NCBI GenBank assembly: GCA_965242965.1
Contig: OZ251518.1
Span: 1,472,001-1,536,000, forward strand
Length of the DNA: 64,000 nucleotides
Source of the DNA: Candidatus Poribacteria bacterium
Lineage (GTDB): Bacteria; Poribacteria; WGA-4E; WGA-3G
Direction of reading: 5' to 3'
Positions 10,104 through 54,646 of this stretch are shown one piece after another; position 1 is the stretch's first letter, and every line of letters begins with the position of its first letter. Below the pieces are notes generated by a model. The model worked only from the letters and a program-made list of their open reading frames with translations. It did not search any database and was not told the DNA's origin. The position numbers and the translations under genes were made by a program.

Positions 10104-10760
10104 CGTAGCGCGAGGGCCTGTCCCTCGCATGGTTTCGGTTGGAAAAACGCCATCCGCAGTGCCCGTAGCGCGAGGGCCTGTCCCTCGCGTGTTTTCGGTT
10201 GGAAAAACGCCGTCCGTAGTGACCGTAGCGCGAGGGCCTGTCCCTCGCGTGTTTTCGGTTGAAAAAAAGCCATCCGTAGTGACCGTAGGGCGAGGGCCTG
10301 TCCCTCGCGTGGCTTCGCCGAAAAAACGCTATCCGTAGTGCCCGTAGCGCGAGGGCCTGTCCCTCGCGAACTTTCCATTTCATTGAGGGTGTTTGATATC
10401 TTGATGGCTCCCCGGTAGGAGAGACCTCCCGGTCTCGATGCATCGCGCATGCGAGAGACTATAGTTCGGGAGTGCCTGCTCCCGAACGGGTCAAGATCGC
10501 TTGGCAAACATGCCAGAGCTTCAGACGATCTTGACCTACAGAGGGGGATGCCTCGTCTTACCGTAGGGCGAGGGTCTGTCCCTCGCCATCGTTCGCACAT
10601 CCCAACGCTCGCGGGGGACAGGCCCCCGCGCTACGGTGTCAGCAGCATTTCTCGCACCGATCTCGGAAGAAACCCGCCCGGATGCGCGTGTGGCATCCGA
10701 GGGGCCCCGCGCTACGGGGAAAAAAACAGCCCCTTGTTGAGCGATTTATGAAACACCCAC
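10104..10760. repeat. Five ~60-bp tandem REP units followed by a capped element (10385-10760)
   Basis: CGTAGCGCGAGGGCCTGTCCCTCGC (one copy CGTAGGGC...) at 10104, 10164, 10224, 10284, 10343; caps GAGGGTGTTTGATA and TATGAAACACCCAC. Confidence 0.92.
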
Positions 10761-10790
10761 ATTTCATTAGGGATTCTTTTGGAGGAAAAA

Positions 10791-11867
10791 ATGAACAACA
10801 GAGTTCGCATCGGAGTCGTCGGTGTCGGGAGTATCTCCGTGCGCGGCATTCTCCCGCACCTCACACAAGACGATGTTCAAGATAGACTACAGGTAACCGC
10901 TGTCTGCGATCCGGTTCCCGGCAGAGCCCAAGCCGCGTCCGAGAAATTCAACGTCCCGCACACGTATGAAACCTACGAGGCGTTGTTGGCAGACAGACAA
11001 GTGGATGCAGTAAGCATCGCATCGCCGATCGGGTTGCATTATGAACAGGGAAAACTCGCCATTGAGCACGGCGTGCATGCACACTTCAACAAGACGATGA
11101 CAACCAGCGTTGCGGAAGCGGATGCGTTAATCGCCGCCGCAGCGGAAAAGGAGGTCAAATTAGTAGCTTCGCCTGGGCAGATGTTGCGTCCAATCAACAG
11201 AGAGATTCGTCGGCTTGTTAGTGAAGGCGCGCTCGGAACGCTGACATGGGCGGCGACCGGGGCTGCTTTCGGCAGATACCACGAAAACGAATCGGTACGG
11301 CACGGCGATGATCTGCTATCCAATATCAACCCGGCGTGGTATTTCCGAAAACCGGGCGGCGGACCGCTTTACGACATGACAGTCTATGGCTTGCACACGC
11401 TGACAGGCATTCTCGGACCCGCGAAGCGCGTAACGGCGTTCTCCGGCGTGCGCATCAAGGAACGTGAATTCCGCGGCGAAATGCTCCCGTGCGACATGGA
11501 CGATAACACCTTCATCTTGCTAGACTTCGGCGAGGCGTTTTTCGGGTTTGTCTACGGTGCCGCCGCAGGATACCAGGTCCGCGGCGGATTAGCGATTCAC
11601 GGGACAGCCGGGACAATTGAGGGCGGTTCCTTCAACGGCAAACCAATTGACGCGCCGGACATGGCACTCCCGCACGTGGTGGGAGTGCATCGGGACATTC
11701 AGGAATCGCATGTCTATGAGGACATTATGCAACTAGTAGACTGGATTCGTGAGGGTATCCCCACTATCGTCACGGCGGAACATGCGCGGCACGTAATCGA
11801 AATTTTTGATGCCGGTTACCGTTCTGCTCAAACCGGGCAAGCGCAAACCTTGCGAACCACTTTTTAG
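10791..11867 (+). CDS. Gfo/Idh/MocA family oxidoreductase
   Basis: RIGVVGVGSIS, VDAVSIASPIGLH, GGGPLYDMTVY; the usual EKP motif reads NKT. Confidence 0.92.
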   Translation: MNNRVRIGVVGVGSISVRGILPHLTQDDVQDRLQVTAVCDPVPGRAQAASEKFNVPHTYETYEALLADRQVDAVSIASPIGLHYEQGKLAIEHGVHAHFNKTMTTSVAEADALIAAAAEKEVKLVASPGQMLRPINREIRRLVSEGALGTLTWAATGAAFGRYHENESVRHGDDLLSNINPAWYFRKPGGGPLYDMTVYGLHTLTGILGPAKRVTAFSGVRIKEREFRGEMLPCDMDDNTFILLDFGEAFFGFVYGAAAGYQVRGGLAIHGTAGTIEGGSFNGKPIDAPDMALPHVVGVHRDIQESHVYEDIMQLVDWIREGIPTIVTAEHARHVIEIFDAGYRSAQTGQAQTLRTTF

Positions 11868-11925
11868 ATGCATCGGCTAAGGCCTGTTTGCCATGCTTAT
11901 TTTAAAACGCGTTGATTGGCCCTTC

Positions 11926-12436
11926 CGTAGGGCTTGGGCCCTCGGATGCCACACGCGCTGGCGAGCGGGTTTCCCTCGCCAGCGTTCATGCACGCGCACT
12001 CCAACGCTCGCGGGGGACAGGCCCCCGCGCTACGATAAAAAACGCCACTCCCTCATCCCGTAGGGCGAGGGACAGGCCCTCGCCAGCGTTTTGCTACCAG
12101 AGCTCCTCACCTCTGTAGGTCAGGAGCGCCTGCTCCTGACCTGTTTGTGATCAGGCGATCACAAACTACAGAGGGGGAAACGCACATCGTGACGATGGAG
12201 ATCGCGGGGGAAACCCGCTCGGATGCGCGTATGGCATCCGAGGGCCCCCGCGCTACGATGAAAAAACGCCCCTCACCGTAGGGCGAGGGCCTGTCCCTCG
12301 CCATCGTTCATGCACGCGCACTCCAACGATCGCGGGGGACAGGCCCCCGCGCTACGATGAAAAAAACGCCACTCCCTCACCGTAGGGCGAGGGCCCTCGC
12401 ATGCCACACGCGCATGCGAGAGGGTTTCCCTCGCCA
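11926..12436. repeat. REP-like mosaic array
   Basis: GTAG hairpins including nested TCGGATGC/TCGCATGC loop variants. Confidence 0.9.
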
Positions 12437-12476
12437 TGCTTGTCTAACAAGAAAATCATCTAAAGGAAAAAACGTC

Positions 12477-13427
12477 ATGCCAAAAGCTTTATGTATCGGT
12501 GAATTGCTCATCGATTTTGTATCCACTACCCCCGATGTAACGCTTGCGGCGGCACCGGGGTTCGTCAAAGCCCCCGGTGGCGCGCCCGCGAACGTTGCTG
12601 TAGGCTTAGCAAAACTCGGTATTGATGCCGGGTTCATCGGCAAAGTCGGCGCGGATGCGTTCGGCGATTTCCTGCGAGAAACGCTGACACAGCACCACGT
12701 CAATACCGACTACCTCATCGCCGATGAGACATCTCGCACGACGTTAGCCTTCGTCGCCACGCGCTCCGATGGCATGAAAGACATCACCTTCTATCGGCAT
12801 CCCGGCGCGGATATCCAACTCTCGCCTGACGAAATCGACGCGGACTATATCCACTCAGCGGCACTTTTTCACTATGGTTCTGTCAGCCTGAGTCATTCGC
12901 CAAGCCGGGAGGCGACGCTGGCAGCGATTCAGGAGGCGAAGGCCGGCGGCGTGCTACTCTCCTATGATGTGAACCTACGGTTGATGCTCTGGGACGATGC
13001 CGACGATGCAAAACGGTGGATTTGGGCTGTCTTGCCCTACGCCGATGTTGTTAAAATATCGGAAGAAGAATGGAATTTCATCATGGGCGATGTGAGTTTT
13101 GCAAGTGGCGCAAAACGCATCCTTGAACAAGGTGCATCCCTCGTCGTTGTCACGCTCGGGGAAAAGGGGTGTTACTACACAAACGGCAGCGCGGAAGGCA
13201 CGGTTGATGGATTCGCTGTCAAGGTGGTGGATACCCTCGGCGCGGGCGATGCCTTCGTCGCGGCGATGCTGTTCCAGCTGCTGCGTCATGAAAATCTTCA
13301 GTCGCTTAACGCGGAACAACTCGGCGCGATAATGCGTTATGCGAACGCCGCGGGGGCATTAGCGACGCAGAAGGTAGGGGTAATCCCTGCCTTGCCAACG
13401 GCTGCAGAGATTGCGGCGTTCCTGTAA
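12477..13427 (+). CDS. PfkB family carbohydrate kinase (fructokinase-like)
   Basis: GGAPANVAVGLAKLG and VDTLGAGDAF signatures; the ORF-track N-terminal extension is repeat-derived. Confidence 0.93.
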   Translation: MPKALCIGELLIDFVSTTPDVTLAAAPGFVKAPGGAPANVAVGLAKLGIDAGFIGKVGADAFGDFLRETLTQHHVNTDYLIADETSRTTLAFVATRSDGMKDITFYRHPGADIQLSPDEIDADYIHSAALFHYGSVSLSHSPSREATLAAIQEAKAGGVLLSYDVNLRLMLWDDADDAKRWIWAVLPYADVVKISEEEWNFIMGDVSFASGAKRILEQGASLVVVTLGEKGCYYTNGSAEGTVDGFAVKVVDTLGAGDAFVAAMLFQLLRHENLQSLNAEQLGAIMRYANAAGALATQKVGVIPALPTAAEIAAFL

Positions 13428-13453
13428 GTCGGGACAACAATGGACTACGGAAG

Positions 13454-13932
13454 GAAGGGGTTTCATAAATTGCTATGCGTTTGGCTGGCAGACCGCCTCA
13501 CCCCTGTAGGTCAGGATCGCCTGATCCTGACCCGTTCGGGAGCGGGCGCTCCCGAACTACAGAAGTGGGCCCGATGCATCCCGGTAGGAGAGACCTCCCG
13601 GTCTCGATGCAATACCCGGTAGGCGAGACCTCCTGGTCTCGATGCGTTTTGTTGGTGTTTTTATCGGGACAAGGATGTCCCTCCTACCTGGCTCGATTTC
13701 TGCCGGTAGGCGAGACCTCCTGGTCTCGATGCTGCAAGGCTCGGGCGCGCCCCACCTATAGTTCAGGAGCGCCTGCTCCTGAACGCTTTGTGCTCAGGCG
13801 ATTGCAAACGACGATGGGCTTCTCAATGTCTTCCCGATACGGACCACGTTGAGACCCGGGCGGCAGAAATCGAGACCGGGAGGTCTCTCCTACGGGGCCA
13901 TCGCGCGCATCGAGACCAGGAGGTCTCTCCTA
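13454..13932. repeat. REP-like mosaic array
   Basis: Degenerate left cap GAAGGGGTTTCATA; many GTAGG(A/C)GAGACCTCC(C/T)GGTCTCGAT units. Confidence 0.9.
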
Positions 13933-14007
13933 CCGGGGAAACGGAATCGTTTCGGGGTATCACGAAACCAGAGCACGGCGGTGAGTGGATTATTGAGTTG
14001 TTCTAAA

Positions 14008-14808
14008 TCAACCCCGCCGCGCCCGAACCGCATACATCGGCCATGAAAAATAGAAATCCTCACCTGCTGGCCGGACGGTGTAATGCTCCTTTGCCTCATC
14101 TGGGGAGAGTTGCGCGAAGGCATCACGGATTGCACGCACCACCGCCGGTGGATTATTCTCCGGCCGCACCCACCACAAAAACGACATCTGCGCATTACGC
14201 ACGTGCGCAGAACGTTCTATCGTAAATCCTGCAGCGGTAATCATCGCATCCCACTGAGACGGTGGGTAGCCATATACATGCGAATTATCTCGCAGCCTCT
14301 CCACGCGATTCTGCCACGCGATGAGTTTCTCCGATTCGGGTGAGACAGAATCCACCATGCAGAAGAGTCCATTCGGGCGTAAAACCCGATGGACTTCTCT
14401 TAAAAACGCAGGCACATCTTCAAAGTGATGCGGCGCGATCCGGCACGTCACCAAATCGTAAGCGGCATTGGCGAACGGCAGTGCCTCCGCAGCGGCGAGC
14501 GAAAAGGCGATGTTCGGTATCGCTTGCTCTTGTGCCAATTCGGCTGCCTTGACAAGCATCTCTTCTGTCAAATCTGTCGCGACGACATTCGCGACGTTGG
14601 GTGCGAACGCGAACGCCGTGAATCCTGTCCCGGTGGCGATGTCTAGCACCTGTTCCGTGCCTTTCGGTTCGGCAAATTCAAGGATGACATCAAGCGTATC
14701 GCCTTTAGCATGTGCAGTGCTTTGCGCGTAGTATTCGGCATGTTGGCTGAACTGTGCTGTGACAGCGTTGTGGATAGATTTCATGTTGTGCTGTGCCTCC
14801 ACGTCCAT
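14008..14808 (-). CDS. Class I SAM-dependent methyltransferase (UbiE/YcgJ-like)
   Basis: VLDIATGTG, AEALPFANAAYDLVTCRIAPHHF, LRPNG. Confidence 0.92.
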   Translation of the reverse strand: MDVEAQHNMKSIHNAVTAQFSQHAEYYAQSTAHAKGDTLDVILEFAEPKGTEQVLDIATGTGFTAFAFAPNVANVVATDLTEEMLVKAAELAQEQAIPNIAFSLAAAEALPFANAAYDLVTCRIAPHHFEDVPAFLREVHRVLRPNGLFCMVDSVSPESEKLIAWQNRVERLRDNSHVYGYPPSQWDAMITAAGFTIERSAHVRNAQMSFLWWVRPENNPPAVVRAIRDAFAQLSPDEAKEHYTVRPAGEDFYFSWPMYAVRARRG

Positions 14809-14810
14809 TT

Positions 14811-15331: not shown

Positions 15332-15344
15332 AGCGAGGAGGCGC

Positions 15345-15515: not shown

Positions 15516-15516
15516 C

Positions 15517-16350: not shown

Positions 16351-16485
16351 CGCGTGCAGTTATCCAAATTTGTAATTTGTCGTTTTCACCCGCTTCTCGG
16401 TACCGAACGCATCGAAATATGAAACCCCCTCATCACCCGAAAGCCCCCGTTTCGCGCAAGGAAAAATCGCGCGATGGCCCAAAGG

Positions 16486-17625: not shown

Positions 17626-18019
17626 TTTGAGCGCGTTTTGCGTCGTGCGAGAACTTCAGACGCGCTCAAACTACAGTAGGTAATGTGAAGGTGTTTCATA
17701 AATCGCTCAACGTCGCGGGGGACAGGCCCCCGCGCTACGGTGAAAAAATGGAGAATTGCCGGCGGACCCGCCCGAGCTCAATGTCCGCCGGGTAGGAGGG
17801 ACATCCTTGTCCCGATAACAACATCGAGACCGGGACGGCAAGCCGACAGGAAAAAATTGAGACCAGGAGGTCTCTCCTACGGTATTGCATCGAGACCGGG
17901 AGGTCTCTCCTACCGGGGTGTGCATCGTTTCGGGTAGGAGGGACATCCTTGTCCCGATAACAACATCGAGACCGGGAGGTCTCTCCTAACGGGGACATCG
18001 CTTGCTATGAAACACCCTG
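17626..18019. repeat. Long-loop GTAG hairpin plus capped REP element (17687-18019)
   Basis: GTTTGAGCGCGT...ACGCGCTCAAACTAC; caps GAAGGTGTTTCATA and TATGAAACACCCTG. Confidence 0.88.
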
Positions 18020-33622: not shown

Positions 33623-34192
33623 GAGGGTGTTTCATAAATCGCTCAACGTCGCGGTGACAGGCCCTTGCTACGGCGAAAAACGCCGCCCCTTTACGTAGGG
33701 CGAGGGCCTGTCCCTCGCCATCGTCCGCGCAATCCAACGATCGCGGGGGACAGGCCCCCGCGCTACGGTAACGGGACGGTTTCTTCACAAAACGGCCCCT
33801 TTCATCGTAGGGCGAGGGCCTGTCCCTCGCCGTGCCCCGGTCTGCGCAGCAACCATCCGGGGTCTCTGGGCTGCGGCCGTTTTCCGCAGCGGTCGAGAGA
33901 TCGCGGGGGACAGGCCCCCGCGCTACGGGTGGAGAACCCCCCTTCACCGTAGGGCGAGGGCCTGTCCCTCGCCATGCACGATCTGAGCATCAAGCATCCG
34001 TGGTACCTGGGCTGCGGGCGTTTTCCGCGGCGGTTGCGAGATCGCGGGGGACAGGCCCCCGCGCTACGGGCGGAGAAAAGCCCCCCTTCACCGTAGGGCG
34101 AGGGCCTGTCCCTCGCCATCGCTCGCGCTACGGGAACATCGAGACCAGGATAGCTCTCCTACCGGGAAGACATCGAGATATGAAACATCCTC
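33623..34192. mobile_element. Capped REP cassette (MITE-like, non-autonomous)
   Basis: TTAAtt-GAGGGTGTTTCATA ... TATGAAACATCCTC-agTTAA enclosing alternating hairpins. Confidence 0.7.
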
Positions 34193-37100
34193 AGTTAATT
34201 TTTTTCCTATGCGTTGATAGGGTTGCGCCAAGTGCTGCGACTCGGCTTTGAGCCTGTTCAAGAAAAACTTGGTATTTGTCCGCGTCTCTATGCGTTTCGC
34301 GGGTGTGCATATCAAAAGTCAACGGCGCGCCGAAAACTATCCGCACGGGATGCTTTTTTGGCAGATTTTTCCCCTTCGGCAGCGCGCGATAGGTGCCGTC
34401 TATATACGCCGGGATAATCGGCACGTCAGGCGCATAAATCAGCAGACTAAGCACACCCTGTTTGAACGGCTGGAGGTTCCCGTCAAGCGAACGAGTGCCT
34501 TCGGGGAAGACGAGCAGTCCATTGTTTTGCGCCATTACCTCGTTTGCTACGCGCAAATCTTGGAGGAACTCGGTGAAGTTCCCTTCACGTTCGATCGGCA
34601 AAGCGTTGAGACAGGTGCGCGCAAACCAGCCTTGCAGACGGTTGCCGAACCAATAATCGCGCGCCGCAAGTGTCCAGAGCTGATACGCCTTCGGACCGAG
34701 GGCGGTTATCACCGCTAGCGTATCTAAATGACTGGTATGATTCGGCGTGATGATATACGGCTTCCCCTGCGGGATATGCTCCAGCCCGTGGCACTCCAGA
34801 GAGAAATAGTGCTTATAGATGCCGCGGACAATGGCGCGGAAGGCGCGCGCATACCACCGCGGCACCTGCCGAAAATCGAGTGCCTCCACAGGCTCGCGAG
34901 GTTCTGTGCCATTTTCGACATCCGAGGCGTGGAACGTCTGTGTCAATTCAACGACATCGCCGACTGTCTGTAAATTGGCGAGCATCGCGTCGGGGATGGT
35001 GTGGCCGAGGCGCGCCTCAAGCAGAAGCAGCAGATCCAAGCGCATGAGCGAATCTAACCCCAGGTCTGTATCTAAACGGCTTTCTGGGCGAATTTGGTTT
35101 ATGCCGAGGCGCGCCAACCGCGCTAGCGACGTTAAAATTTCTTCCGGAACATCCGCTGAAGGTTCAATTTCGTCATCTGCAGACGCGCTTTCTACGCGGG
35201 CAAGGTGCGCCTGAAGCATCGCCTTGACACGCTGCCTATCCGGAATGCCATCGGCAGTCTTCGGTAGTGCTTCTTCCCACAGATGCGTTTTGTGAAAGTG
35301 TTGATAACTGGGTAGCTGTTTGGCGCGCGCCTGAAGGTGTTGTTGAATTGCCTCTTCGGTTACGCGCGAGGCTGTCTCTGTAGGCACAATCACGGCGTGA
35401 ATGGCGGTATCGCTGCTGTCTTCATAAGGGATGCCGACGACGCACATCTCCGAAATCGCCGAATGATTCCGATAAAGTGCCTCCAATTCAACAGGATACA
35501 CATTTTTGCCGGCGGCCGGGACGATAATATCCTTGCAATGTCCCGTGATATAGAGGTATCCGTCCGCGTCCAGGAACCCCAGGTCTCCCGTATAGAGCCA
35601 TCCATCGCGAATGGATTTCGCCGTAGCGTTCGGATTCTCGTAGTATCCCTTCATCGTGCTGGGGCCTTTGGCGATAATCTCGCCGATGCCGTTGCTGTCA
35701 GGATCGTGGATGTGGAGTTCCACGCCTTCCACCGCCTGTCCGACAGAGCCTCGCTTGCTTTTCAGATACGGATTAACGCTGAGGACCGGGGCGGTTTCTG
35801 TCATTCCATAGCCTTGGTAAAGCGTGAGTCCAAGTGCCTGAAATTCATCGTAGATTGCGTCGGAGAGCGCGGCACCGCCGCTGACAAGCACCCGAATCTC
35901 GCCGCCCATAACGTTGCGTGCCTTCTCAGCCAAAGTTTGCCCCGGCGTTTCTGCCCGCGATGCCTGCCGTTTGATAGTGCTTTGGAGCATCTGAAAGAGG
36001 CGTGGCACGCCGATGAAGGCGGTGATTTTCGCCTCTCGCATCGTCTTGAGGAGCGTAGTCGGACGGAGCGCGTTGACGTAAATCGCCGTGGTGCCGCTAT
36101 AAAGTGCCATCAACAGACTGCACGAGAAACTCAAGGCGTGATACAGCGGGAGCGCGGAGAGGATGCGTTCGTTATCCTTCGGCGGCAGTGCCTTCGCAAC
36201 GGCGCGAACGTTAGAAATAAACCCACCGTGCGTCAACATCGCGCCTTTCGCGTCCACCGTCGTTCCCATCGTGAAAATAATCGAAGCGACGGTATCCGGC
36301 GTAATCTCCACGTTCGGGAAATCGGTAGGCATCTCCGATGTCGTTGTCAGTTCGTTGATGTTCTGCACCTGCGGTTTTGCCGATGCTAATTCGTCGCTGT
36401 ATTTCGCCAAGACGCTATCGGATACCAAAATGGATTTGGCTTCGGTGAATTCAGCGATGGCTAAGATTTCGGATGCCGGCGTTTGCGCGTCAAGTGGGAC
36501 TACTGCCGTACCGAGTTGGACAGCGGCGAGATAGGCGATGCACCACTCCGGCTGGTTCTCCGAAACGAGCAGGGCCCTGTCCCCTTTGCGGAGGCCGCTC
36601 TGCCACAATTGATACGCCGTTTGGCGCGAACGTTCGTAGGTTTCCGCGTAGGTATATTGCTCCCACTCCCCATCGTTTACCATCAGCAGCGCGATGTTGT
36701 TGGGAATGCGCTTTGCCTGTATCTCAACCAAATCGACGATGGTTTTCGGTGAAATCCGCTCGATCGGGTTCTCGGCATCCGTAGGAGAGACATCCCGCTC
36801 TTGATGGCTCCCCCGTGAAATCCTGTCAATGGGGTTTTCGGCATCCGGAGGAACTGTTTCAGTTGTTTCAGTCGATGCTTCCGCTTCATCGTCGGCATCG
36901 GATTGACTCTGTCGCGCCGAGGGAGTTTCACCTGCGGTTGGCTCTTCCAGTTTCAGCACGTGCCGCTTGATGCCGGGAATGTGGATTTCCTGGAAATACT
37001 GCTTCCAGTGGATCTGCGAGACATCAAAGTTAAAGCGTTGCTGTTCAGGCGGGGAGAGTGCCTCCCAGAGTGCCTGCGTTTTCCGCGTCTCGAATTCAAA

Positions 37101-38531
37101 GTTGGTGCGGGTGTAGGGCGCGTAAATACGGATGTAGTGGAGCAGTGCCTTGATACTGCTCTGCTTCACGACAAGTCTGCGGCGGCGGCGTTTTGCGGCG
37201 CGCAACGGCAACCGCGCGAGTGCCTGAATTGCCTTGTCAAGCATCCGCATCCGGCTGTCCAATTTCCGCTGAAATTCCGCTAAACTGGGATACTGCCAGA
37301 CAGGCACCTGAATCGGTTTGCCGTTTTCTAGCATAGGATTTTCGACAAAATAGTCGTAGGTTGCGTCAACGATGCCGCGGAAATAGAGGGGGTTCTGCGT
37401 GCCGGTAGCAACGTGATATACCTCAATCCCGCCGTTCCGCACAGTGGCTTCGGCGGCCGCCAACATGGCGTTCACAACGAAATCAACGGGGATAATATCA
37501 AGGATAATATCCGGTTCTGCCGGAAAATCAGGTAAACGTCCCTTTGCAAAACCGACAATCAGCGGTTCTGACATCCGAAACTTGCCGAGCCATCCCGGCA
37601 CGGGTTCCGCGAGACTGCTCTCAATGATGGAAGGACGGATAATCGCCGTGGGCAGTTCGCCGCGCAATTCTATCACCATCTGTTCGGCGAGGAATTTCAT
37701 GTAGGTATAGGTATCGTTCCACCCGCGCGAACGCGCATGCTTCAACCCTGCCTCTACCAATTCCGCTTCAAGCCATTCGGCTTGTGCCTCGTTAACTCGC
37801 GCTTCAAGTTTCTTGCGGCTGCCCTGTTTATTCTGCTCCGCCTCTCGTTGAAACTGCGCGCGGCGTTCCGGTGAGTCCGCCTCGGCGTGGATTGCCGCGC
37901 TCAAGGCATGCAACTCCTCAACTTCCGCCGAGAGCGTTTGCGGGATGGCAACGCCTGTTTTCTCCTGATGTTGCTTGGCGTAGACTTCATAAGGCGGCGG
38001 GAGCTCCTCCTGCACGCGCCCCGGAGTGTCACCGCAAACATACGCCGTTGAGACATGCAGAAATGCAGCGTTCTGGCAGCCCTTCGCGAAGGTGACGACG
38101 TGCTTGGCGGCCAAAGCGTTGCCCCTTAACGATTCGTCAAACGGCGGATCGAATTGAACAACACCGGCGATGTTAATGAAGAGCTCCACTTCGCCTTGCA
38201 GCCGTTGGTATTCTGCGTCGCCGAGACCGAGGCGTTCGTCCGTGAGCTCGCCTTCAACGGCGAACAACTTCTGCTTCGCCCACGCATCAAAATTTGCGCC
38301 GTGGTGTTGGCGGAGAGACGCAAACACATCCGAGGTTAACAACTCGTTTTCTAACCGTTCTTGTGCCGAGATGCGTCTCCCACTGGCATCGGCGCGGCAT
38401 CGGATGAGCAGATACATTTTATGGACATCGGGAAGCGCGGTCAGAATTTTGGCAACCATCGGCTGACCGAGGAAGGCGGTGCCGCCCGTAATGAAGAGAA
38501 CCTTCCCGCGAAAAAAATCGGCTATTGACAT
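34191..38531 (-). CDS. ElbD-like multidomain enzyme: fatty acyl reductase + adenylation + carrier + acyltransferase
   Basis: TGGTAFLG/HVSTAYV/YTYMK (reductase), YQGYGMTE/TGDLG (AMP-binding), LGLDSL (carrier serine), NHTSHLD/FPEGTRS (PlsC-type acyltransferase). Confidence 0.9.
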   Translation of the reverse strand: MSIADFFRGKVLFITGGTAFLGQPMVAKILTALPDVHKMYLLIRCRADASGRRISAQERLENELLTSDVFASLRQHHGANFDAWAKQKLFAVEGELTDERLGLGDAEYQRLQGEVELFINIAGVVQFDPPFDESLRGNALAAKHVVTFAKGCQNAAFLHVSTAYVCGDTPGRVQEELPPPYEVYAKQHQEKTGVAIPQTLSAEVEELHALSAAIHAEADSPERRAQFQREAEQNKQGSRKKLEARVNEAQAEWLEAELVEAGLKHARSRGWNDTYTYMKFLAEQMVIELRGELPTAIIRPSIIESSLAEPVPGWLGKFRMSEPLIVGFAKGRLPDFPAEPDIILDIIPVDFVVNAMLAAAEATVRNGGIEVYHVATGTQNPLYFRGIVDATYDYFVENPMLENGKPIQVPVWQYPSLAEFQRKLDSRMRMLDKAIQALARLPLRAAKRRRRRLVVKQSSIKALLHYIRIYAPYTRTNFEFETRKTQALWEALSPPEQQRFNFDVSQIHWKQYFQEIHIPGIKRHVLKLEEPTAGETPSARQSQSDADDEAEASTETTETVPPDAENPIDRISRGSHQERDVSPTDAENPIERISPKTIVDLVEIQAKRIPNNIALLMVNDGEWEQYTYAETYERSRQTAYQLWQSGLRKGDRALLVSENQPEWCIAYLAAVQLGTAVVPLDAQTPASEILAIAEFTEAKSILVSDSVLAKYSDELASAKPQVQNINELTTTSEMPTDFPNVEITPDTVASIIFTMGTTVDAKGAMLTHGGFISNVRAVAKALPPKDNERILSALPLYHALSFSCSLLMALYSGTTAIYVNALRPTTLLKTMREAKITAFIGVPRLFQMLQSTIKRQASRAETPGQTLAEKARNVMGGEIRVLVSGGAALSDAIYDEFQALGLTLYQGYGMTETAPVLSVNPYLKSKRGSVGQAVEGVELHIHDPDSNGIGEIIAKGPSTMKGYYENPNATAKSIRDGWLYTGDLGFLDADGYLYITGHCKDIIVPAAGKNVYPVELEALYRNHSAISEMCVVGIPYEDSSDTAIHAVIVPTETASRVTEEAIQQHLQARAKQLPSYQHFHKTHLWEEALPKTADGIPDRQRVKAMLQAHLARVESASADDEIEPSADVPEEILTSLARLARLGINQIRPESRLDTDLGLDSLMRLDLLLLLEARLGHTIPDAMLANLQTVGDVVELTQTFHASDVENGTEPREPVEALDFRQVPRWYARAFRAIVRGIYKHYFSLECHGLEHIPQGKPYIITPNHTSHLDTLAVITALGPKAYQLWTLAARDYWFGNRLQGWFARTCLNALPIEREGNFTEFLQDLRVANEVMAQNNGLLVFPEGTRSLDGNLQPFKQGVLSLLIYAPDVPIIPAYIDGTYRALPKGKNLPKKHPVRIVFGAPLTFDMHTRETHRDADKYQVFLEQAQSRVAALGATLSTHRKKIN

Positions 38532-42802: not shown

Positions 42803-43051
42803 CAGTAGGAGAGACCTCCCGGTTTCGATGCTGCTAGCCCTAACTATACGGTGTGCCTCTCCGAGAGGACAGGCGTGCCTGAGTTTGACCCGTTCGGGTG
42901 CAGGCGCACCCGAACTACAGCGGTGGGCCCGCTGCCTTCCCAGTAGGCGGGACATCCCTGTCCCGATACGAACCACATTGAGACCGGGCGGCAGAAATCG
43001 AGACCAGGAGGTCTCTCCTACGGGGAAGCCATCGAGATATGAAACACCCTC
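42803..43051. repeat. REP-like array with right cap
   Basis: Ends in TATGAAACACCCTCggTTAA. Confidence 0.88.
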
Positions 43052-43763: not shown

Positions 43764-44398
43764 GAGAGTGTTTCATAACTCGTTTTCCCGGTAGGAGAGA
43801 CCTCCCGGTCTCGATGTGAGCGGTGCCCCCGTAGGCACCCTCCCGCTCTCAATATCGTCCGCGCAATCCGACACTCGCGGGGGAAACCCGCTCGGATGCG
43901 CGTGTGGCATCCGAGGGCCCTCGCGCTACGGGAAAAAACGGCACTTCACCGTAGGGCGAGGGCCTGTCCCTCGCCATGCGTTTGGCGGGCAGACCTTCTC
44001 ACCTCTGTAGGTCAGGATCGGGCGATCTTGACCCGTTTGTGATCAGGCGATCACAAACTACAGAGAGGGGAGAACGGAAAAAACGTCTCTTGTTCTCTTC
44101 AGGTCTGTAGGACCTGAATGTCTATAGCACGTGCAGACGCGAAGAATCCTAAGGGCCTTTAGGTCCTTAATGTGTTTTACCGTGCCGCGTGTTTTCTTAT
44201 TAAGGACCTAAAGGACCTTGAAAACGGGCCGACACATGCTGCTATAGACATGTAGGACCTAAAGGACCTAAAACGCCTCGGGACGATAGAGTTCGCGAGG
44301 GACAGGCAACCCCGCCCTACGATAAAAATAATGGCTTCTTTTTATCGAGACCAGGAGGTCTCTCCTACTGGGAAGCCATCGAAATATGAAATACCCTC
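43764..44398. mobile_element. Capped REP cassette
   Basis: GAGAGTGTTTCATA ... TATGAAATACCCTC, with TTAA just outside both ends. Confidence 0.7.
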
Positions 44399-48295: not shown

Positions 48296-48673
48296 GAGGG
48301 TGTTTCATAAATCGCTCAACGTCGCGGGGACAGGCCCCCGCGCTACGGTGCGCGGGCCCCTTTGTATCGTAGGGCGAGGGCCTGTCCCTCGCCATGCAAC
48401 GATCGCGGGGGACAGGCCCCCGCGCTACGGTAAAAAACGGCCTCCTTCACCGTAACTGCGGTGAAAAAACGCCGCCCCTTCATCGTAGGGCGAGGGCTTG
48501 TCCCTCGCCATCGTTCGCGCTACGGAAAAACGTCTCTTGTTCTCTTCAGGTCCTAAAAGACCTAAAACGCCACTTCTTGGCGATGGAGCTCGCGGGGGAC
48601 AGGCCCCCGCGCTACGGGAACATCGAAACCCGAGATCTCTCCTACCGAACACATCGAATTATGAAACACTCTC
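48296..48673. mobile_element. Capped REP cassette
   Basis: GAGGGTGTTTCATA ... TATGAAACACTCTC. Confidence 0.7.
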
Positions 48674-49243: not shown

Positions 49244-49357
49244 GATAATCTGACCCTCCAAAAACAAGGCATATCGTTGCCTTGGTTTTCATATCTGTTG
49301 ATTTGATTTGGCTTGCACGGGCGGCTCTAGCCATCCGCCCTTACAAGCCTCGTAACG

Positions 49358-49897: not shown

Positions 49898-50061
49898 GTT
49901 CTCTTCCTCCTTTTGATATAAACGATAACCTTTTCCGCAAACGCAATCGTTTTAGACACTGAAAACTTCGCGCTTGACATTTTTTGTGAATATGATAACA
50001 TATCCACAAAAAATAGGATACCATAATTCGCGTTGGATTTGCAACGCGGGAGGAATAATTC

Positions 50062-51330
50062 ATGAATTTAACACGTCAACCCCCACGCCGCCCGACGAAC
50101 CTCGGCATCGCCGGGATTGTCGGCGCGGCACGAATGACGGATAAGGCACGCGCCGCAAACGAGGAAACCCTCGGCGACTATATCTACGGCGAAAGTTCTG
50201 GCTTGGACCAGCGCGTCTTAAGTTTTCTCGGCATCTCCGCTGATGTCTTCGCTGATGCTGTGAAAGAACACGACGATGCCACCCTCAGCGACTGGGTGCT
50301 GGAGACGAGCGGGAAAACGGCAGCGGAAATCGCGGTATTTAACGAGGAGAGGCTCACTCACATGCCGGATAGCGATGGGCACAAACGGCGACTGCAGGAA
50401 CGCATCGCCCGGTTTGCACCGGGGCGCACCGACGTTAAGACGCTGCTCCAGTCCATGGAATTGGACGATTGGGGTAGTTTCTGGCAGGTAACTCTCACCG
50501 AGCGGCCCCCGCGCAGCGCGCGGGCGAAGGACATCGGCGGTATCTGTGGTGTCGCACGCATGGCAGACAAAGCACGCGCCGAACGCGCCGGCAAAATCGG
50601 TGAGTATATCTACGGCGACGCTTCCGGACAAGATGTCCGCATCTTGAAGTTCCTCGGCATCTCTGCCGCAGATTTTCAGGAAGCCGCCGTTAACAACCCG
50701 AATAACCTTGAACTCGGTGAATGGGTTTTGGAAAACAGTGGGAAATCAGCGGCGGAGATCGACGCGTTCAATCACACGTTAGTCAACTACGCGCCTAACG
50801 ATGAGACGCGCCAACGCTTTGAATCGCGCTGCAGCGAAGTCGGCGTAAGTCCGACGGAGATTACCACCTGGGTCGCGCTTCAAGACGTTGACGATGAACG
50901 TAGTTTCGGCATCGTCGATTTGGAACGCCACGCGCCGCGCAGTCCGTTCAACACCGATATTTGCGGCATCGTTCACGTCGCGCGAATGGTGGACAAAGGG
51001 CGCGCAACGAACTCAGACTCGTTGGGACTTTACTATTACGGCGCGGATTCTGGGATGGACCGGGTCGCGCTAGAATTCCTTGGCCTCACGCCTGATGCCT
51101 TCGCGGACGCACTCAAAACGCTGCCAACCGATGCCGAGGTTGACGCATGGCTGCGGGAAAACTATCCGAAGGACGAGGCAGACATTGCGGCACATAACGA
51201 ACGACTCCTTCAAGCCGGGCCGCGCTCGGAAAGGGAGTGGGCATTTGTCAAGAATATGCTCGGGCACACGGATGCCAAGACGTGGTTTGAATTCGCGGTG
51301 ATTGATGATGAGAGGACCTTCGCGATTTAG
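50062..51330 (+). CDS. Protein with three tandem DUF5069-like domains
   Basis: Three copies of PR..GI...ARM.DK.RA....G.Y.YG..SG.D...L.FLG. Confidence 0.8.
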   Translation: MNLTRQPPRRPTNLGIAGIVGAARMTDKARAANEETLGDYIYGESSGLDQRVLSFLGISADVFADAVKEHDDATLSDWVLETSGKTAAEIAVFNEERLTHMPDSDGHKRRLQERIARFAPGRTDVKTLLQSMELDDWGSFWQVTLTERPPRSARAKDIGGICGVARMADKARAERAGKIGEYIYGDASGQDVRILKFLGISAADFQEAAVNNPNNLELGEWVLENSGKSAAEIDAFNHTLVNYAPNDETRQRFESRCSEVGVSPTEITTWVALQDVDDERSFGIVDLERHAPRSPFNTDICGIVHVARMVDKGRATNSDSLGLYYYGADSGMDRVALEFLGLTPDAFADALKTLPTDAEVDAWLRENYPKDEADIAAHNERLLQAGPRSEREWAFVKNMLGHTDAKTWFEFAVIDDERTFAI

Positions 51331-51336
51331 TGTGAT

Positions 51337-51925
51337 GCTCGCGAGGGACAGACCCGTTTGTGATCAGGCGATCACAAACTACAGAGGGGAGGTCTCCTAC
51401 ATTCGCGGGGGACAGGCCCCCGCGATGCGGTAGGAGAAAGCCATTCCCTTCACCGTAGGGCGAGGGCCCTCGCATGCCACACGCGCATGCGAGAGGGTTC
51501 CCCTCGCCATGCCAACGATCGCGGGGGCCTGTCCCTCGCGCTGCGGCATCCGAAAGCCGCCTCCTTCACCGTAGGGCGAGGGCCTGTCCCTCGCCATGCA
51601 ACGATCGCGGGGGACAGGCCCCCGCGCTACGGGCAACAAAAACGGTTTTCGTTTACGTAGGGCGAGGGCCTGTCCCTCGCCATGCTGACGCGCTACGATG
51701 AAAAACGGCGCGCGGGCTTTTCATGTCCGTAGGACCTAAGAGCCCATCGTGACAATAGCGATCGCGGGGGACAGGCCCCCGCGCTACGGTGAAAGGGCAA
51801 GCTCTGTAGTTTGTGATCGCCTGATCACAAACGGGGGACAGGCCCCCGCGCTACGGTGCTAGGGGGCATCGAGACCGGGAGGTCTCTCCTACCGGGAGCA
51901 ATTGATACCCGGAGGGCTCTCCTAC
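51337..51925. repeat. REP-like mosaic array
   Basis: Alternating GTAG hairpins between convergent genes. Confidence 0.9.
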
Positions 51926-51926
51926 C

Positions 51927-53840
51927 TCAAAACATAAACCGGTACATCGGCCGTTCTAACGCGATTCCAAGAAGCGTCCAGACTGCCCCCACGATGAACT
52001 CCCCAATGACGAGCCCGATGAAAAACGGCATCGCCCGGCGATATGTGCGCAATCCACCCGCCTGAAATAGAATCGCTTTTATCCCCCACGACAAGAAAAT
52101 CGAGAACCAATACCAACTCGTATTCCAAAAGCTGAGCGACAGCGCATAGCCAGCAGGATGAAAGGGCCACCAGATAAACCGCCTGCGCAATACCATTAAA
52201 AGTGTTGTGAGGGCAATCGCGCCACCAGACGCAGAAACCGCGCCGACATCAATGGATTGCGGGTTGATGAGCCATTGCTTCAACTGCTCGTAAGTCCATC
52301 GGCACTGCGCTTGTTCACCGTAAACTGCGCCGCCGTAATGATACCCTTGCGCATAATATGCCCACGCCGAGGAAATCGTCCCTACGATAGTCACCAAAAT
52401 CACGGCTGTAATAAAGCGGTTGTGTGATAACCCGCGCACCTGCGCTACTTTGAAACCCTCCAACATAATCGGCATTGGATGGGAACGGTAAGAGCGGTTG
52501 AACCCGTGGAACATGCTGAACGTCGTCAACCCCGCGGCACCGATGCGTCGCGTGCCAATGAAAGAGACAAGCACTTTATCCGGTCTCCACGGAACGTCGT
52601 GTGCCGGCGGGCCGACTTCTGCGCGGATGCGCGTAATCGCAATTGCCAACGCGAAGAATAGCGTGAAATAGCCGAAGATGCTGAAAATCGGCGTGCCGGT
52701 GCTTTTGAAGAAGAGGAGGATAAAGATGCCCCCTGCTATTAACCCTATGATGGCGTATCGGATGCGGGCGCGTTCTGCAGCGTCACCGTCCCCCGCGCCT
52801 TGAAACGCCGTTTTCACATGCCGCGCGATGAATTTGCGAGTGAGCCAAATCGCCGAAACCCCAAGGCAGAACCACGCGCCGAACGATTGGGCATCGAGGA
52901 ACGGAAAACCCGGCAGATGCCCAATGCCCGCCATCGTCCCCCACACGCGCATCATTTTGTGGAACAGATAGAAAAACCAGATCGAGAACGAGAGTTCCAG
53001 CGGAATAAAGAAACTCATCCCTATCGCGAACGGATAAACGGCGATGGGAAGTCTGCCGATGGCACTGAGCGGTTTCGTCTGGAAATATTGCCCTAAATTG
53101 TAAAGACTCCCGCCTAACCCCGGCACGACAGGGAAGAGGAAGTGGAGCCCATTGAGCAAATTCATCCCGCCTGCCAGCACTGCGCCGAGCAGAAACAGCC
53201 GATTTGTCAATAACACGCGCCCGCCGTTTTCGGTGAGATGCAGCGGAATCTGAATCACCGGATAACTTAACTTCTCGTGTGTTACCCACTGGTGCCGGAT
53301 AAGCAGCGTGAGGCAGAGCATCATGCACGTCAGCACGATGACCAGGGCACTCCACCACAGCACCGGTGTCATCCAGAGTTGCAGATGTTGCGCTGTGTGG
53401 AGTGTGGAGTCGCCTTGGTAGAACGCCGCCAGCGCGCTCCGTTCTTTGATAGAGAGCCACTCCGGGATATGTTGTTGAAAAACTTCACCCCATTCGTTTT
53501 CAGGACTAGCGAACCAGATTGAATAAGTTAGAAGGGGCCACAAGATCTGGAGTGTATCGTGCCCGGCGAGGGAGGAGGCGATGGAGAGAAGCAGGTAGAC
53601 TACCATCAATTCACCATCGCTGAGAGACGCGCTTTTCCGAAACGCGCGGAGCAGCGGGTTAACCCCCATCAGGAGCAACACGATAAAGATGACGTTAAAG
53701 TAGACCGTGGAGACAGTAGGGAAACTCTGGCCCGTGCTGTAACCAGAGGTCCCCCAGTTAATCATGAGCCAATAAGAGTTCGGAATAGTAAAGAGGAGTG
53801 CGAGGAGCACTGCACGCGCGCTAACGTTTTTTCTTGGCAT
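51927..53840 (-). CDS. Polytopic membrane protein (DUF6785/DUF6784-type, putative transporter)
   Basis: Many TM helices; W..HEKLSYP, RIRAEVG, WWPFHPAGY. Confidence 0.78.
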   Translation of the reverse strand: MPRKNVSARAVLLALLFTIPNSYWLMINWGTSGYSTGQSFPTVSTVYFNVIFIVLLLMGVNPLLRAFRKSASLSDGELMVVYLLLSIASSLAGHDTLQILWPLLTYSIWFASPENEWGEVFQQHIPEWLSIKERSALAAFYQGDSTLHTAQHLQLWMTPVLWWSALVIVLTCMMLCLTLLIRHQWVTHEKLSYPVIQIPLHLTENGGRVLLTNRLFLLGAVLAGGMNLLNGLHFLFPVVPGLGGSLYNLGQYFQTKPLSAIGRLPIAVYPFAIGMSFFIPLELSFSIWFFYLFHKMMRVWGTMAGIGHLPGFPFLDAQSFGAWFCLGVSAIWLTRKFIARHVKTAFQGAGDGDAAERARIRYAIIGLIAGGIFILLFFKSTGTPIFSIFGYFTLFFALAIAITRIRAEVGPPAHDVPWRPDKVLVSFIGTRRIGAAGLTTFSMFHGFNRSYRSHPMPIMLEGFKVAQVRGLSHNRFITAVILVTIVGTISSAWAYYAQGYHYGGAVYGEQAQCRWTYEQLKQWLINPQSIDVGAVSASGGAIALTTLLMVLRRRFIWWPFHPAGYALSLSFWNTSWYWFSIFLSWGIKAILFQAGGLRTYRRAMPFFIGLVIGEFIVGAVWTLLGIALERPMYRFMF

Positions 53841-53858
53841 GTTGGTTTTCCTAGGCGT

Positions 53859-53887
53859 ATTCTATAGGAAATCTTGCAAATTGTCAA
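53859..53887 (-). promoter_or_regulatory. Sigma70 promoter TTGACA-N17-TAGAAT
   Basis: Consensus boxes just upstream of ATG 53840. Confidence 0.6.
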
Positions 53888-53916
53888 TGTCGTTTTGAGT
53901 TTTTCTCGAAAAAAGC

Positions 53917-53946
53917 TTGACATTTGCACACAATTTGTGTTAAAAT
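53917..53946 (+). promoter_or_regulatory. Sigma70 promoter TTGACA-N18-TAAAAT
   Basis: Faces the LRR gene across a repeat cassette. Confidence 0.5.
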
Positions 53947-53963
53947 GAGTCTCATAATTGATT

Positions 53964-54646
53964 GAGGGTGTTTCATAAATCGATGCGTTCGGTAGGAGAG
54001 ACCTCGGGTCTCGATTCCCTCGTAGGAGAGACCTCCTGGTCTCGATGTTCCCGTAGCGCGGGGGCCTGTCCCCCGCGATCGTTGCATGGCGAGGGACAGG
54101 CCCTCGCCCTACGGTGAGGGGAGCGTTTTTTATCGTAGCGCGGGGGCCTGTCCCCCGCGAGCGTTGGATTGCGCGAGCGATGGCGAGGGAAACCCTCTCG
54201 CCTGCGCGTGCGGCATCCGAGGGCCCAAGCCCTACGTTAAGAGGGGCCGTTCTGGATACCGTAGCGCGGGGGCCTGTCCCCCGCGATTATCGTCCCGATG
54301 TGTGTTTCCGCCTCTGTAGTTTGTGATCGCCTGATCACAAACGGGTCAGGATCAGGCGATCCTGACCTACAGAACTTACAGGGCCTGGTGCACGAACGAT
54401 GGCGAGGGACAGGCCCTCGCCCTACGATGAAGGGGGCGTTATTTTCCCCGTAGCGCGGGGGCCAGACCCCCGCGATCGTTGGATTGCACGAGCAATGGCG
54501 AGGGACAGGCCCTCGCCCTACGATGAAGGGGGATTTTTGCCGCCGCGCCGCCCTATTGCATCGAGACCAGGAGGTCTCTCCTACGGGGAAAATTGAGACC
54601 AGGAGGTTTCTCCTACGGGGAAACCATTGATATACGAAACACCCTC
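53964..54646. mobile_element. Capped REP cassette
   Basis: GAGGGTGTTTCATA ... TACGAAACACCCTC. Confidence 0.7.

What the first reader, a model, noticed from the sequence alone, without database searches (positions are those of the whole stretch)
10385..54646. REP arrays packaged between 14-bp terminal inverted repeats: MITE-like shells with variable hairpin cargo
Seen: six arrays are bounded by GAGGGTGTTTCATA...TATGAAACACCCTC or close variants (10385-10760, 17687-18019, 33623-34192, 43764-44398, 48296-48673, 53964-54646), often with TTAA 1-3 nt outside. Solo caps occur at 4618, 7388, 13454, 16418, 26304, 43038 and 57841. The interiors differ in length (330-680 bp) and unit order. Inference: a two-tier element in which DDE-type ends (GAG-starting, reminiscent of IS5-family ends) move the cassette while a separate process shuffles its hairpins. 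I do not know of a described element with this architecture. I could not define a clean target-site duplication.
Basis: partly seen in the sequence, partly recalled or inferred. Interest (0 to 1): 0.85.

Follow-up and report, generated by a model that had tools for sequence, protein, structure and literature searches.

The report
Orphan MITE shells filled with REP hairpins
The 14-base caps are the ends of a very abundant family of small non-autonomous transposons, left by an insertion sequence this genome no longer carries, and their insides are now filled with a second kind of mobile hairpin repeat.

Summary
The cap GAGGGTGTTTCATA (up to 2 mismatches) occurs 18 times in the window against 0.33 expected, and 1026 times in the genome. 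Adjacent inward-facing pairs within 1500 bp outnumber outward-facing ones 301 to 51.

64 of 301 pairs have a perfect 8-bp flank repeat and 27 of 301 a perfect 9-bp one; shuffled partners give 11 of 6020. The target is palindromic, A-N-T-T-A-A-N-T. Related genomes show empty sites.

Near-identical caps end a ~1.1-kb insertion sequence with a 338-347 aa DDE transposase and 8-bp duplications. It was found in 40 of 121 genomes of the same order, but not in this genome, which keeps only six relics of its left end.

The interiors are GTAG-headed REP hairpins. The genome encodes one REP-associated tyrosine transposase flanked by such REPs.

The two-tier reading is largely supported, with one correction: 1432 of 2144 REP arrays have no cap, so caps do not generally package arrays. 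Verdict: a new variant of known kinds (MITE plus REP/RAYT), moderately interesting.

The parts
10385..10760 (.). Complete shell of 376 bp: caps at 10385-10398 (+) and 10747-10760 (-); interior modules D-A-a.
   Evidence: One search places the caps. There is a perfect 8-bp duplication, ATTTCATT, on both sides. Congener G002 has a clean empty site with only one REP between the same two genes.
17687..18019 (.). Shell of 333 bp with two caps; interior a-d-d; no recognisable duplication.
   Evidence: The element is absent from G002, and homology resumes 2 nt outside the right cap.
33623..34192 (.). Shell of 570 bp; interior is seven A-type REPs in alternating orientation.
   Evidence: The flank repeat matches 7 of 8 (CGTTAATT / AGTTAATT). 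The element is absent from G002, which has 47 bp between the same genes. The stop codon of ORF 34191-38531 (-) overlaps the cap.
43764..44398 (.). Shell of 635 bp; interior D-A-C-e-a-d.
   Evidence: The flank repeat matches 7 of 9.
48296..48673 (.). Shell of 378 bp; interior a-A-a-A-a-d.
   Evidence: The flank repeat matches 6 of 8, with core GTTTAA.
53964..54646 (.). Shell of 683 bp; interior of 13 REP modules; no duplication recognisable.
   Evidence: The element is absent from G002, and homology ends 7 nt and 12 nt outside the caps.
4618..4631 (+). Solo cap whose inner sequence is of the kind derived from the insertion sequence's left end (ACTCGTTGTTGTCAAAATGG...).
   Evidence: 45 caps genome-wide carry this inner sequence.
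7387..7400 (-). Solo cap closing the REP array 7059-7370.
13454..13467 (+). Solo cap opening the REP array 13506-13933.
16418..16431 (-). Solo cap.
43038..43051 (-). Solo cap (exact) next to a D-type REP.
57841..57854 (-). Degenerate cap (4 mismatches) closing the REP array 57101-57833.
10105..10384 (.). REPs also grow outside shells.

Best explanation
**What the caps are.** The caps are the terminal inverted repeats of a very large family of non-autonomous transposons (MITEs, or mobile-insertion-cassette-like shells). The conserved end is about 21 nt, GAGGGTGTTTCATAAaTCg.T.

**Where they came from.** The shells derive from a ~1.1-kb insertion sequence with a single 338-347 aa DDE transposase of the DDE_Tnp_1 superfamily. 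That transposase, supplied in trans, inserted them by staggered cuts. The result is 8-bp (less often 9-10-bp) target duplications at the AT-rich palindromic target A-N-T-T-A-A-N-T, mostly just beyond gene ends and starts.

**Their present state.** The parent element is gone from this genome, so the roughly 300 two-capped and 420 one-capped elements are most likely immobile fossils. Caps differ from their consensus by about 5% per site.

**The second tier.** The interiors consist of GTAG-headed REP hairpins, the substrate class of REP-associated tyrosine transposases (RAYT). One RAYT gene flanked by REPs is present. I infer that REPs colonised and reshuffled the unconstrained interior of the shells, by RAYT action and by recombination between REPs. 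This produced the many unique interiors and removed one cap from many elements.

**Shown:** the ends, the duplication, the target, the empty sites, the parent family, the relics, the RAYT, and different interiors at two shared insertions.

**Inferred:** the trans-mobilisation, the present immobility, and which process remodels the cargo.
For: **Numbers and orientation**
- 1026 caps genome-wide, 530 of them exact.
- 301 inward-facing against 51 outward-facing adjacent pairs within 1500 bp; binomial p about 3e-44.

**Target duplication**
- 64 of 301 pairs have a perfect 8-bp repeat and 27 of 301 a perfect 9-bp one. Shuffled partners give 11 of 6020.
- The logo from the 64 perfect duplications is A55 N T52 T54 A55 A47 N T50, and they are 85% A+T.

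**Empty sites**
- G002 is empty at window 10385-10760.
- G001 is empty at G000:C1:3019427-3019888, where the duplication is ATTTCTAT, and at 3020976-3021364.
- In the reverse direction, G000 is empty where G001 has an element.

**Parent insertion sequence**
- Loci L037-L049 are ~1.1-kb units ending in GAGGGTGGTTCATA, GAGGGGTGCTCATA or GAGGGGTGTGCATA. Five of eight checked have perfect 8-bp AT-rich duplications.
- Matches to the transposase occur in 40 of 121 genomes of the order.
- Pfam gives PF13612 at 41 bits and PF01609 at 37 bits, both above their cut-offs.

**Absence from G000, and relics**
- No PF01609, PF00872, PF01610 or PF00665 match.
- tblastn with 9 transposases gives a best E-value of 0.027. 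A protein search also found none.
- Six relics consist of cap, left-end subterminal sequence and the first ~30 transposase codons, all broken at the same point.

**REP tier**
- All five hairpin classes begin with GTAG; 7751 hits genome-wide.
- The RAYT scores 120.6 bits against NF047646 (cut-off 80) and is flanked on both sides by REPs.
- REP coverage is 23-33% just inside caps against 0.5-4% outside, for solo caps as well.

**Remodelled cargo**
- Two insertions shared by G000 and G001 have identical flanks but different interiors. One has lost its cap and the other has a degenerate one.
- The fraction of pairs with a perfect or one-mismatch duplication is the same (0.46-0.48) for the 57-member main family, the small clusters and the 220 unique elements.

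**Not a gene signal**
- Caps face gene starts 529 times and gene ends 496 times.
Against: - No intact insertion sequence with the exact cap was found anywhere. The nearest has 1 mismatch in 14 and lies in another family of the order. Two collection scans for the left-end pattern returned nothing.
- About half of the pairs (157 of 301) show no duplication, even allowing one mismatch.
- Duplications of 10 bp, and apparent repeats of 11-14 bp, occur at some sites. That is a wide range for one transposase.
- 1432 of 2144 REP arrays have no cap. REP coverage inside shells is only about 1.5 times my rough estimate for intergenic DNA overall, so REPs do not need shells.
- The RAYT is flanked by B-like REPs. 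Its action on the much commoner A and D classes is assumed.
- Different interiors at shared sites could arise by excision and re-insertion of another copy into the same preferred target, rather than by in-situ shuffling.
- Gene positions come from my own crude ORF calling.
- Transposase families other than those named above were not searched in G000.
Confidence: 0.8

Rival explanations
1. The shells moved as ready-made composites. Any two inward-facing caps could be mobilised together with whatever lay between them, as in composite transposons or mobile insertion cassettes. On this view the variety of interiors arose before insertion, not by later shuffling in place.
For: - Elements with unique architecture carry duplications as often as the main family (0.48 against 0.47).
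- Inner-end types combine promiscuously: T1/T2 73 pairs, T1/T3 52, T3/T3 20, T1/T1 6.
- A 2902-bp cap pair with a perfect 8-bp flank repeat encloses a protein gene.
- A cap-bounded 2.2-kb unit in G082 carries an extra Toprim-like ORF.
Against: - 220 of 301 architectures occur only once. Composites that transposed should leave copies.
- Two insertions shared with G001 differ inside while the flanks are identical.
- The 2902-bp case is compatible with chance: I estimate about 0.1 expected among the 62 distant adjacent pairs, from the control rate.
Confidence: 0.3
2. The caps are a host regulatory or protein-binding motif (promoter, terminator, operator or array-boundary signal) kept by selection, not transposon ends.
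For: - Caps lie close to genes: the median distance outward is 38-85 nt, and 166 caps lie 0-20 nt from an ORF end.
- 530 of 1026 caps are exact.
- Single caps are conserved at low copy number in other genera.
Against: - There is no orientation preference relative to genes (529 starts, 496 ends).
- Target duplications and empty sites are present.
- The same sequence ends a transposase-bearing insertion sequence.
- At least two of the single caps in other genomes are relics: G018's lies next to a transposase fragment and G002's precedes a broken transposase start.
- Cap divergence (about 5% per site from the consensus) is not far from that of the interior (main family about 85% pairwise identity).
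- No Rfam family matches in the window.
- An exapted role is not excluded by any of this.
Confidence: 0.07
3. Caps and hairpins are one system. On this view the RAYT or another HUH enzyme moves whole capped arrays, and the caps are an outer motif of a BIME-like cluster.
For: - Every cap has REPs on its inner side.
- The only transposase-like genes found in this genome are of the Y1 type.
- The cap-rich genome is also REP-rich: 2.17 REP per kb in the window against 0.28 per kb in 97 kb of G002.
Against: - From established knowledge of the IS200/IS605 and RAYT families, Y1/HUH transposition makes no target duplication and uses no terminal inverted repeats. Here there are 8-9-bp duplications and a palindromic target.
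- The caps are homologous to DDE insertion-sequence ends.
- 67% of arrays lack caps.
- The RAYT gene itself is flanked by REPs, not by caps.
Confidence: 0.03

Closest known systems
Bacterial MITEs derived from insertion sequences (Correia/NEMIS, RUP, Nezha, ERIC; listed in PMC3733652, passages read)
   Same: - Short non-coding elements with 15-30-bp terminal inverted repeats.
- Fixed-length target duplication.
- Hundreds of copies in intergenic DNA next to genes.
- A related transposase-bearing parent with the same ends.
- Here, six copies still retain the parent's left end and its first ~30 codons.
   Different: - Only about 21 nt at each end are shared across the family. 220 of 301 two-capped elements have a unique interior, and that interior is built from a second repeat system.
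- About 420 one-capped elements exist.
- The parent is absent from the host genome.
REP / REPIN / BIME systems with RAYT (PMC2817692 and PMC3116915, search listing and abstracts only; PMC3733652, passages)
   Same: - GTAG-headed G+C-rich hairpins in thousands of copies.
- Clusters with alternating orientation.
- A single RAYT gene flanked by REPs.
   Different: [quoted passage not shown]
- Here about a third of arrays (651 of 2144) end in at least one DDE-type cap.
Mobile insertion cassettes (insertion-sequence ends around passenger DNA, no transposase; recalled from the Bacillus cereus literature, no paper read here)
   Same: Insertion-sequence ends bracket variable cargo that is mobilised in trans.
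   Different: The cargo here is non-coding REP arrays rather than genes. One possible gene-carrying case (G000:C1:54311-57212) is not statistically secure.
MITE containing a minisatellite in Porphyromonas gingivalis (PMC4596501, abstract only)
   Same: A MITE whose length varies because of a repetitive interior.
   Different: There the variation is the copy number of one tandem unit. Here it is a mosaic of at least five hairpin classes in both orientations.
IS982, IS1182 and IS5 families (NCBIfam models)
   Same: - The parent transposase carries the DDE_Tnp_1 / DDE_Tnp_1_3 domains.
- It is about 1.1 kb with one ORF and short inverted repeats.
   Different: - Scores are far below each family's cut-off: IS982 48 against 130, IS1182 28.5 against 270, IS5_4 24.6 against 140.
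- Where a source names any of the 120 listed relatives (of 1390 at E <= 1e-10), the name is 'hypothetical protein'.

Membership tests
MITE (non-autonomous DDE element) | Terminal inverted repeats | tested here: met
   There are 301 inward-facing cap pairs within 1500 bp against 51 outward-facing ones. The conserved end is about 21 nt.
MITE (non-autonomous DDE element) | Target-site duplication of fixed length | tested here: met
   64 of 301 pairs have a perfect 8-bp repeat and 27 of 301 a perfect 9-bp one, against 11 of 6020 in the control. 157 of 301 show none even with one mismatch allowed.
MITE (non-autonomous DDE element) | Small size, no transposase gene, high copy number | tested here: met
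   The size mode is 250-300 bp and most elements are under 800 bp. No transposase lies inside any pair of 900-3200 bp. There are 1026 caps in all.
MITE (non-autonomous DDE element) | Empty sites in relatives, with boundaries at the ends | tested here: met
   Two empty sites are clean, with a perfect 8-bp duplication. Two have repeats of about 10-12 bp. Three more are approximate, and the left edge of 33623 is about 105 nt off.
MITE (non-autonomous DDE element) | A related autonomous element with the same ends and the same duplication length | tested here: met
   ~1.1-kb insertion sequences in the same order have caps with 1-3 mismatches and 8-bp duplications. Six relics of such an element lie in G000. 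No intact copy with the exact cap was found.
REP / RAYT system | GTAG tetranucleotide followed by a G+C-rich palindrome, extragenic, high copy number | tested here: met
   Five classes give 7751 hits. 82% of caps and arrays lie outside my crude genes.
REP / RAYT system | A RAYT gene flanked by REPs | tested here: met
   The protein scores 120.6 bits against NF047646 (cut-off 80). REPs lie on both sides of the gene.
REP / RAYT system | RAYT cleaves or moves these particular REPs | not testable with these tools
   This needs biochemistry or strain comparison.
   IS5_4 scores 24.6 bits and IS5_2 21.5 bits against cut-offs of 140. IS982 scores higher (48 bits) but is also below its cut-off. Only the superfamily domains PF01609 and PF13612 are met.
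Promoter or terminator motif | Fixed orientation and distance relative to genes | tested here: not met
   Caps face 529 gene starts and 496 gene ends.

The most novel reading that the evidence does not exclude
The DDE-type shells and the RAYT-driven REPs form a partnership. The shells carried REP seeds into, and created dispensable DNA within, hundreds of formerly tiny intergenic spacers. REP arrays then expanded and turned over there. On this reading the shell burst drove the roughly eight-fold higher REP load of this genome compared with its shell-free congener, and the caps survive as array boundaries after the loss of their transposase.
Probability: 0.3. Interest if true: 0.7.

Novelty: new variant of a known kind. 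Interest (0 to 1): 0.55.

Why it matters
- **Two transposon systems nested at large scale.** The genome gives a case in which a cut-and-paste DDE system and a single-strand HUH/RAYT system are nested on a very large scale: about 720 capped elements and 7751 REP hits in 5.7 Mb.
- **A datable frame for REP turnover.** Caps and duplications date and delimit each insertion, so the cargo inside is a natural record of how fast REP arrays are gained, lost and reshuffled. That rate is hard to measure for free REPs.
- **Persistence after loss of the parent.** It documents a MITE burst that outlived its parent element, and names the parent family from relatives.
- **Intergenic growth.** It explains why intergenic spacers in this genome are many times longer than in a congener: 646 bp against 22 bp at one locus.
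- **Annotation.** Caps supply TGA or TAA stops and abut many gene ends, so they can shift predicted gene termini.

Tried and rejected
**Transposase inside cap pairs.** I looked for one inside cap pairs of 900-3200 bp. The ORFs read there are a CTP synthase-like protein and a membrane transporter-like protein (both named by eye from the translations, not by a family search) and an ankyrin/dockerin protein (Pfam). None is a transposase.

**The 1.23-kb high-identity repeat ending at the 4618 cap.** It is a duplicated sigma-70-like gene, not an insertion sequence.

**Self-comparison of the genome.** It gave only 14 hits of at least 600 bp at 94% identity or more, so there are essentially no multicopy insertion sequences.

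**Own-genome family searches.** PF01609, PF00872, PF01610 and PF00665 all returned nothing. Other transposase families (IS630, IS66, IS1595, IS110, Tn3 and others) were not searched.

**Cargo-carrying shell.** The pair at G000:C1:54311-57212, and a 3920-bp pair, have perfect 8-bp flank repeats. With about 2000 cap combinations within 20 kb, the control rate predicts a few such matches by chance, so I do not claim them.

**Promoter reading.** Rejected on orientation.

**Naming the organism.** A plasmid search with contig C2 found nothing, and I did not pursue the name further.

**Scans for an intact parent with the exact cap.** One scan of genome contigs and one of metagenome contigs found nothing. 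The tool notes that records of the window's genome, or of one very near it, may be left out.

**Protein names.** The homologue search for the parent transposase returned no informative names.

**Literature.** Two searches and passages of PMC3733652 and PMC3184786 showed no description of REP arrays inside DDE-type shells.

Full report
**1. The observation**

The 14-mer GAGGGTGTTTCATA, allowing 2 mismatches, matches 18 times in the window. Shuffles give 0.33 on average, and 0 of 100 shuffles reached 18.

In the whole genome (G000: 5.66 Mb plus 38 kb; the window is C1:1472001-1536000) there are 1026 matches. Of these, 530 are exact, 370 have one mismatch and 126 have two. Those ratios imply roughly 5% divergence per site from the consensus (my calculation).

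Adjacent caps face each other within 1500 bp in 301 cases and face away in 51 (binomial p about 3e-44). Pair lengths peak at 250-300 bp, with 79 pairs.

Aligned on the cap, the consensus reads a.TTAA.T | GAGGGTGTTTCATA | AaTCg.T. Information content is zero beyond position -8 and low beyond position +20.

**2. A target duplication exists**

With flanks taken directly at the cap edges, 64 of 301 pairs have identical 8-mers on both sides, 27 have identical 9-mers and 36 match at 7 of 8. With shuffled partners only 11 of 6020 are identical.

The 64 perfect duplications give a palindromic target, A-N-T-T-A-A-N-T, at 85% A+T. A palindromic target is the usual signature of a symmetric transposase complex (established knowledge of DDE transposases).

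157 of 301 pairs show no duplication even with one mismatch allowed. Part of that is the decay expected at 5-8% divergence. The rest probably reflects chimeric or rearranged pairs.

In the window, 10385-10760 has ATTTCATT on both sides and 33623-34192 matches 7 of 8. 43764-44398 matches 7 of 9, 48296-48673 matches 6 of 8, and the other two show none.

**3. Empty sites**

A same-genus genome, G002, has one exact cap and is syntenic with much of the window.
- At 10385-10760, G002 has 22 bp between the two alignment blocks, holding a single REP. The G000 sequence minus the shell and one duplication copy lines up with it.
- At 17687-18019, 33623-34192 and 53964-54646 the shells are absent from G002. 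Homology resumes 2-21 nt outside the caps, except left of 33623, where about 105 nt do not align.

A second congener, G001, is a fragmented assembly (86% complete) and carries the same element family.
- G001 is empty where G000 has shells at C1:3019427-3019888 (duplication ATTTCTAT, clean) and at 3020976-3021364.
- G000 is empty where G001 has a shell (L021:3109-3306).

Insertions therefore continued in both lineages after they split. At the last two of these sites the flank repeats are about 10-12 bp rather than 8.

**4. The parent element**

No pair of 900-3200 bp in G000 holds a transposase. G000 has no match to PF01609, PF00872, PF01610 or PF00665.

A mismatch-tolerant search of 121 genomes of the order showed the variant TGAGGGTGGTTCATAA in several genomes. 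In G069 it lies repeatedly about 125 nt from contig ends. One such contig end encodes the C-terminus of a DDE transposase.

Searching with that fragment found matches in 40 of 121 genomes: family f1 28 of 73, f3 12 of 29. None was found in G000 or G002.

The returned loci are ~1.1-kb units with one ORF of 338-347 aa. They are bounded by GAGGGTGGTTCATA, GAGGGGTGCTCATA or GAGGGGTGTGCATA. Perfect 8-bp AT-rich duplications are present in L037, L043, L044, L048 and L049 but not in L041, L046 or L047.

The protein carries DDE_Tnp_1_3 and DDE_Tnp_1 above their cut-offs. It stays far below every curated insertion-sequence family model, with IS982 the best. Where sources name its many relatives at all, they call them hypothetical proteins.

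tblastn with nine of these transposases against G000 gives nothing significant genome-wide. The one recurrent weak hit lies 59 nt inside an exact cap at C1:5629905. Scored against that region alone it reaches E = 7e-6 and covers the first 36 residues of the transposase.

Six G000 caps carry this same left-end sequence and the first ~30 codons, all interrupted at one point by REP sequence. This is an internal-deletion derivative that itself transposed. G002's only cap is a similar relic. The single cap in G018 abuts a transposase fragment.

Small capped elements with 8- or 9-bp duplications also occur in G045, G052 and G069.

Back-to-back caps separated by exactly 8 nt occur four times in G000, with no other spacing up to 52 nt, and also in G010 and G052. 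This is what insertion into the duplication of a resident copy would produce.

**5. The cargo**

All five hairpin classes I defined begin with GTAG and give 7751 hits, covering 3.3% of the genome. GTAG-headed palindromes are the REP class linked to RAYTs (PMC3733652, passages read, which also report such repeats in Planctomycetes).

G000 has two Y1 transposase matches. One is a broken IS605-like TnpA next to a TnpB-like ORF. The other is a 154-aa protein that scores 120.6 bits against the REP-associated tyrosine transposase model, and its gene is flanked on both sides by REPs. G002 has a homologue at 56% identity.

**6. How caps and arrays relate**

REP coverage is 23-33% in the first 200 nt inside caps and 0.5-4% in the 600 nt outside, for paired and solo caps alike.

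Of 2144 REP arrays, however, 1432 have no cap, 484 have one and 167 have two. REPs therefore spread without shells. What is invariant is that shells contain REPs.

Caps lie next to genes with no orientation preference: 529 face starts and 496 face ends. 166 caps lie within 20 nt of an ORF end, as expected for a target that contains TAA and a cap that begins (T)GA (crude gene calls).

**7. Variable interiors**

There are 176 module strings among the 301 pairs. One family of 57 copies measures about 269 bp with about 85% pairwise identity. There are a few small clusters, and 220 elements have no full-length relative. Inner-end types combine freely. The duplication rate is the same in all classes.

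Two insertions are shared by G000 and G001, with the same flanks and the same duplication, but they differ inside.
- At C1:3015002, G000 has an unrelated interior and no left cap, where G001 has a 263-bp main-family copy.
- At C1:3012258-3012735, G000 reads AaCead with a degenerate left cap, where G001 reads DAAaaAAad over 863 bp.

Either the cargo is remodelled in place, or a resident copy is replaced through re-use of the preferred target. I cannot separate the two.

**8. Lineage pattern**

Exact caps number 530 in G000, 5 in G001 and 1 in G002, and 0-1 in each of the 28 other relatives searched. REP hits per kb are 2.17 in the window, 0.28 in 97 kb of mostly syntenic G002 DNA, and 1.22 in 27 kb of G001. 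The G001 loci were chosen because they hold caps, so that figure is biased. Shell expansion and REP expansion coincide, but with only two or three genomes this is a correlation.

**9. Verdict**

I add the target duplication, the target motif, empty sites, the parent insertion-sequence family, relics of that parent, and the RAYT.

I correct three points. The parent is not a curated IS5 member. It is absent from this genome. Caps do not generally package REP arrays.

Each layer belongs to a known kind, namely MITE or mobile insertion cassette on one side and REP/RAYT on the other. Their nesting at this scale appears undescribed in the papers I could search.

Noticed in passing
G000:C1:54311-57212 (locus L001): A cap pair 2902 bp apart with a perfect 8-bp flank repeat (ATTTAAGT) encloses a 588-aa gene with an HExxH motif, ankyrin repeats and a dockerin domain. 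It may be a gene-carrying shell, but chance is not excluded.
   Followed up: partly
window 3452-4681: A 1.23-kb stretch holding a sigma-70-like gene (3644-4498) is 97.8% identical to G000:C1:3717116-3718346. This is a recent gene duplication that ends at the solo cap at 4618.
   Followed up: partly
L038 (G082:C153:6286-8952), 356-2573: A cap-bounded 2.2-kb unit holds a 352-aa Toprim-like ORF in addition to the 347-aa transposase. It may be a passenger gene in the parent insertion-sequence family.
   Followed up: no
G000, e.g. C1:90059-90316 and C1:658576-658871: Some A-type REPs carry a second hairpin of about 36 nt inserted in their loop (nested hairpins).
   Followed up: no
L007 (G000:C1:3123891-3127127): A single IS605-like unit: a Y1 transposase match broken by two TGA stops, next to a 408-aa TnpB-like ORF.
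   Followed up: no
window 4820-5000; also G000:C1:3014640-3014830 and 3019460-3019640: Clusters of a palindromic GGTCCTTTAGGTCC / GGACCTAAAGGACC-type motif lie inside arrays. This is a further repeat class that my five REP patterns do not cover.
   Followed up: no
window 2876-9151: 6.3 kb, including the sigma-70-like gene and three other ORFs, corresponds to only 152 bp in the syntenic region of G002. It is either an insertion in G000 or a deletion in G002.
   Followed up: no
G000:C1:3012258-3012272: At a shared insertion, the first ~11 nt of the left cap are replaced by 12 nt that repeat the sequence following the right-hand duplication. This looks like a conversion or repair scar.
   Followed up: no
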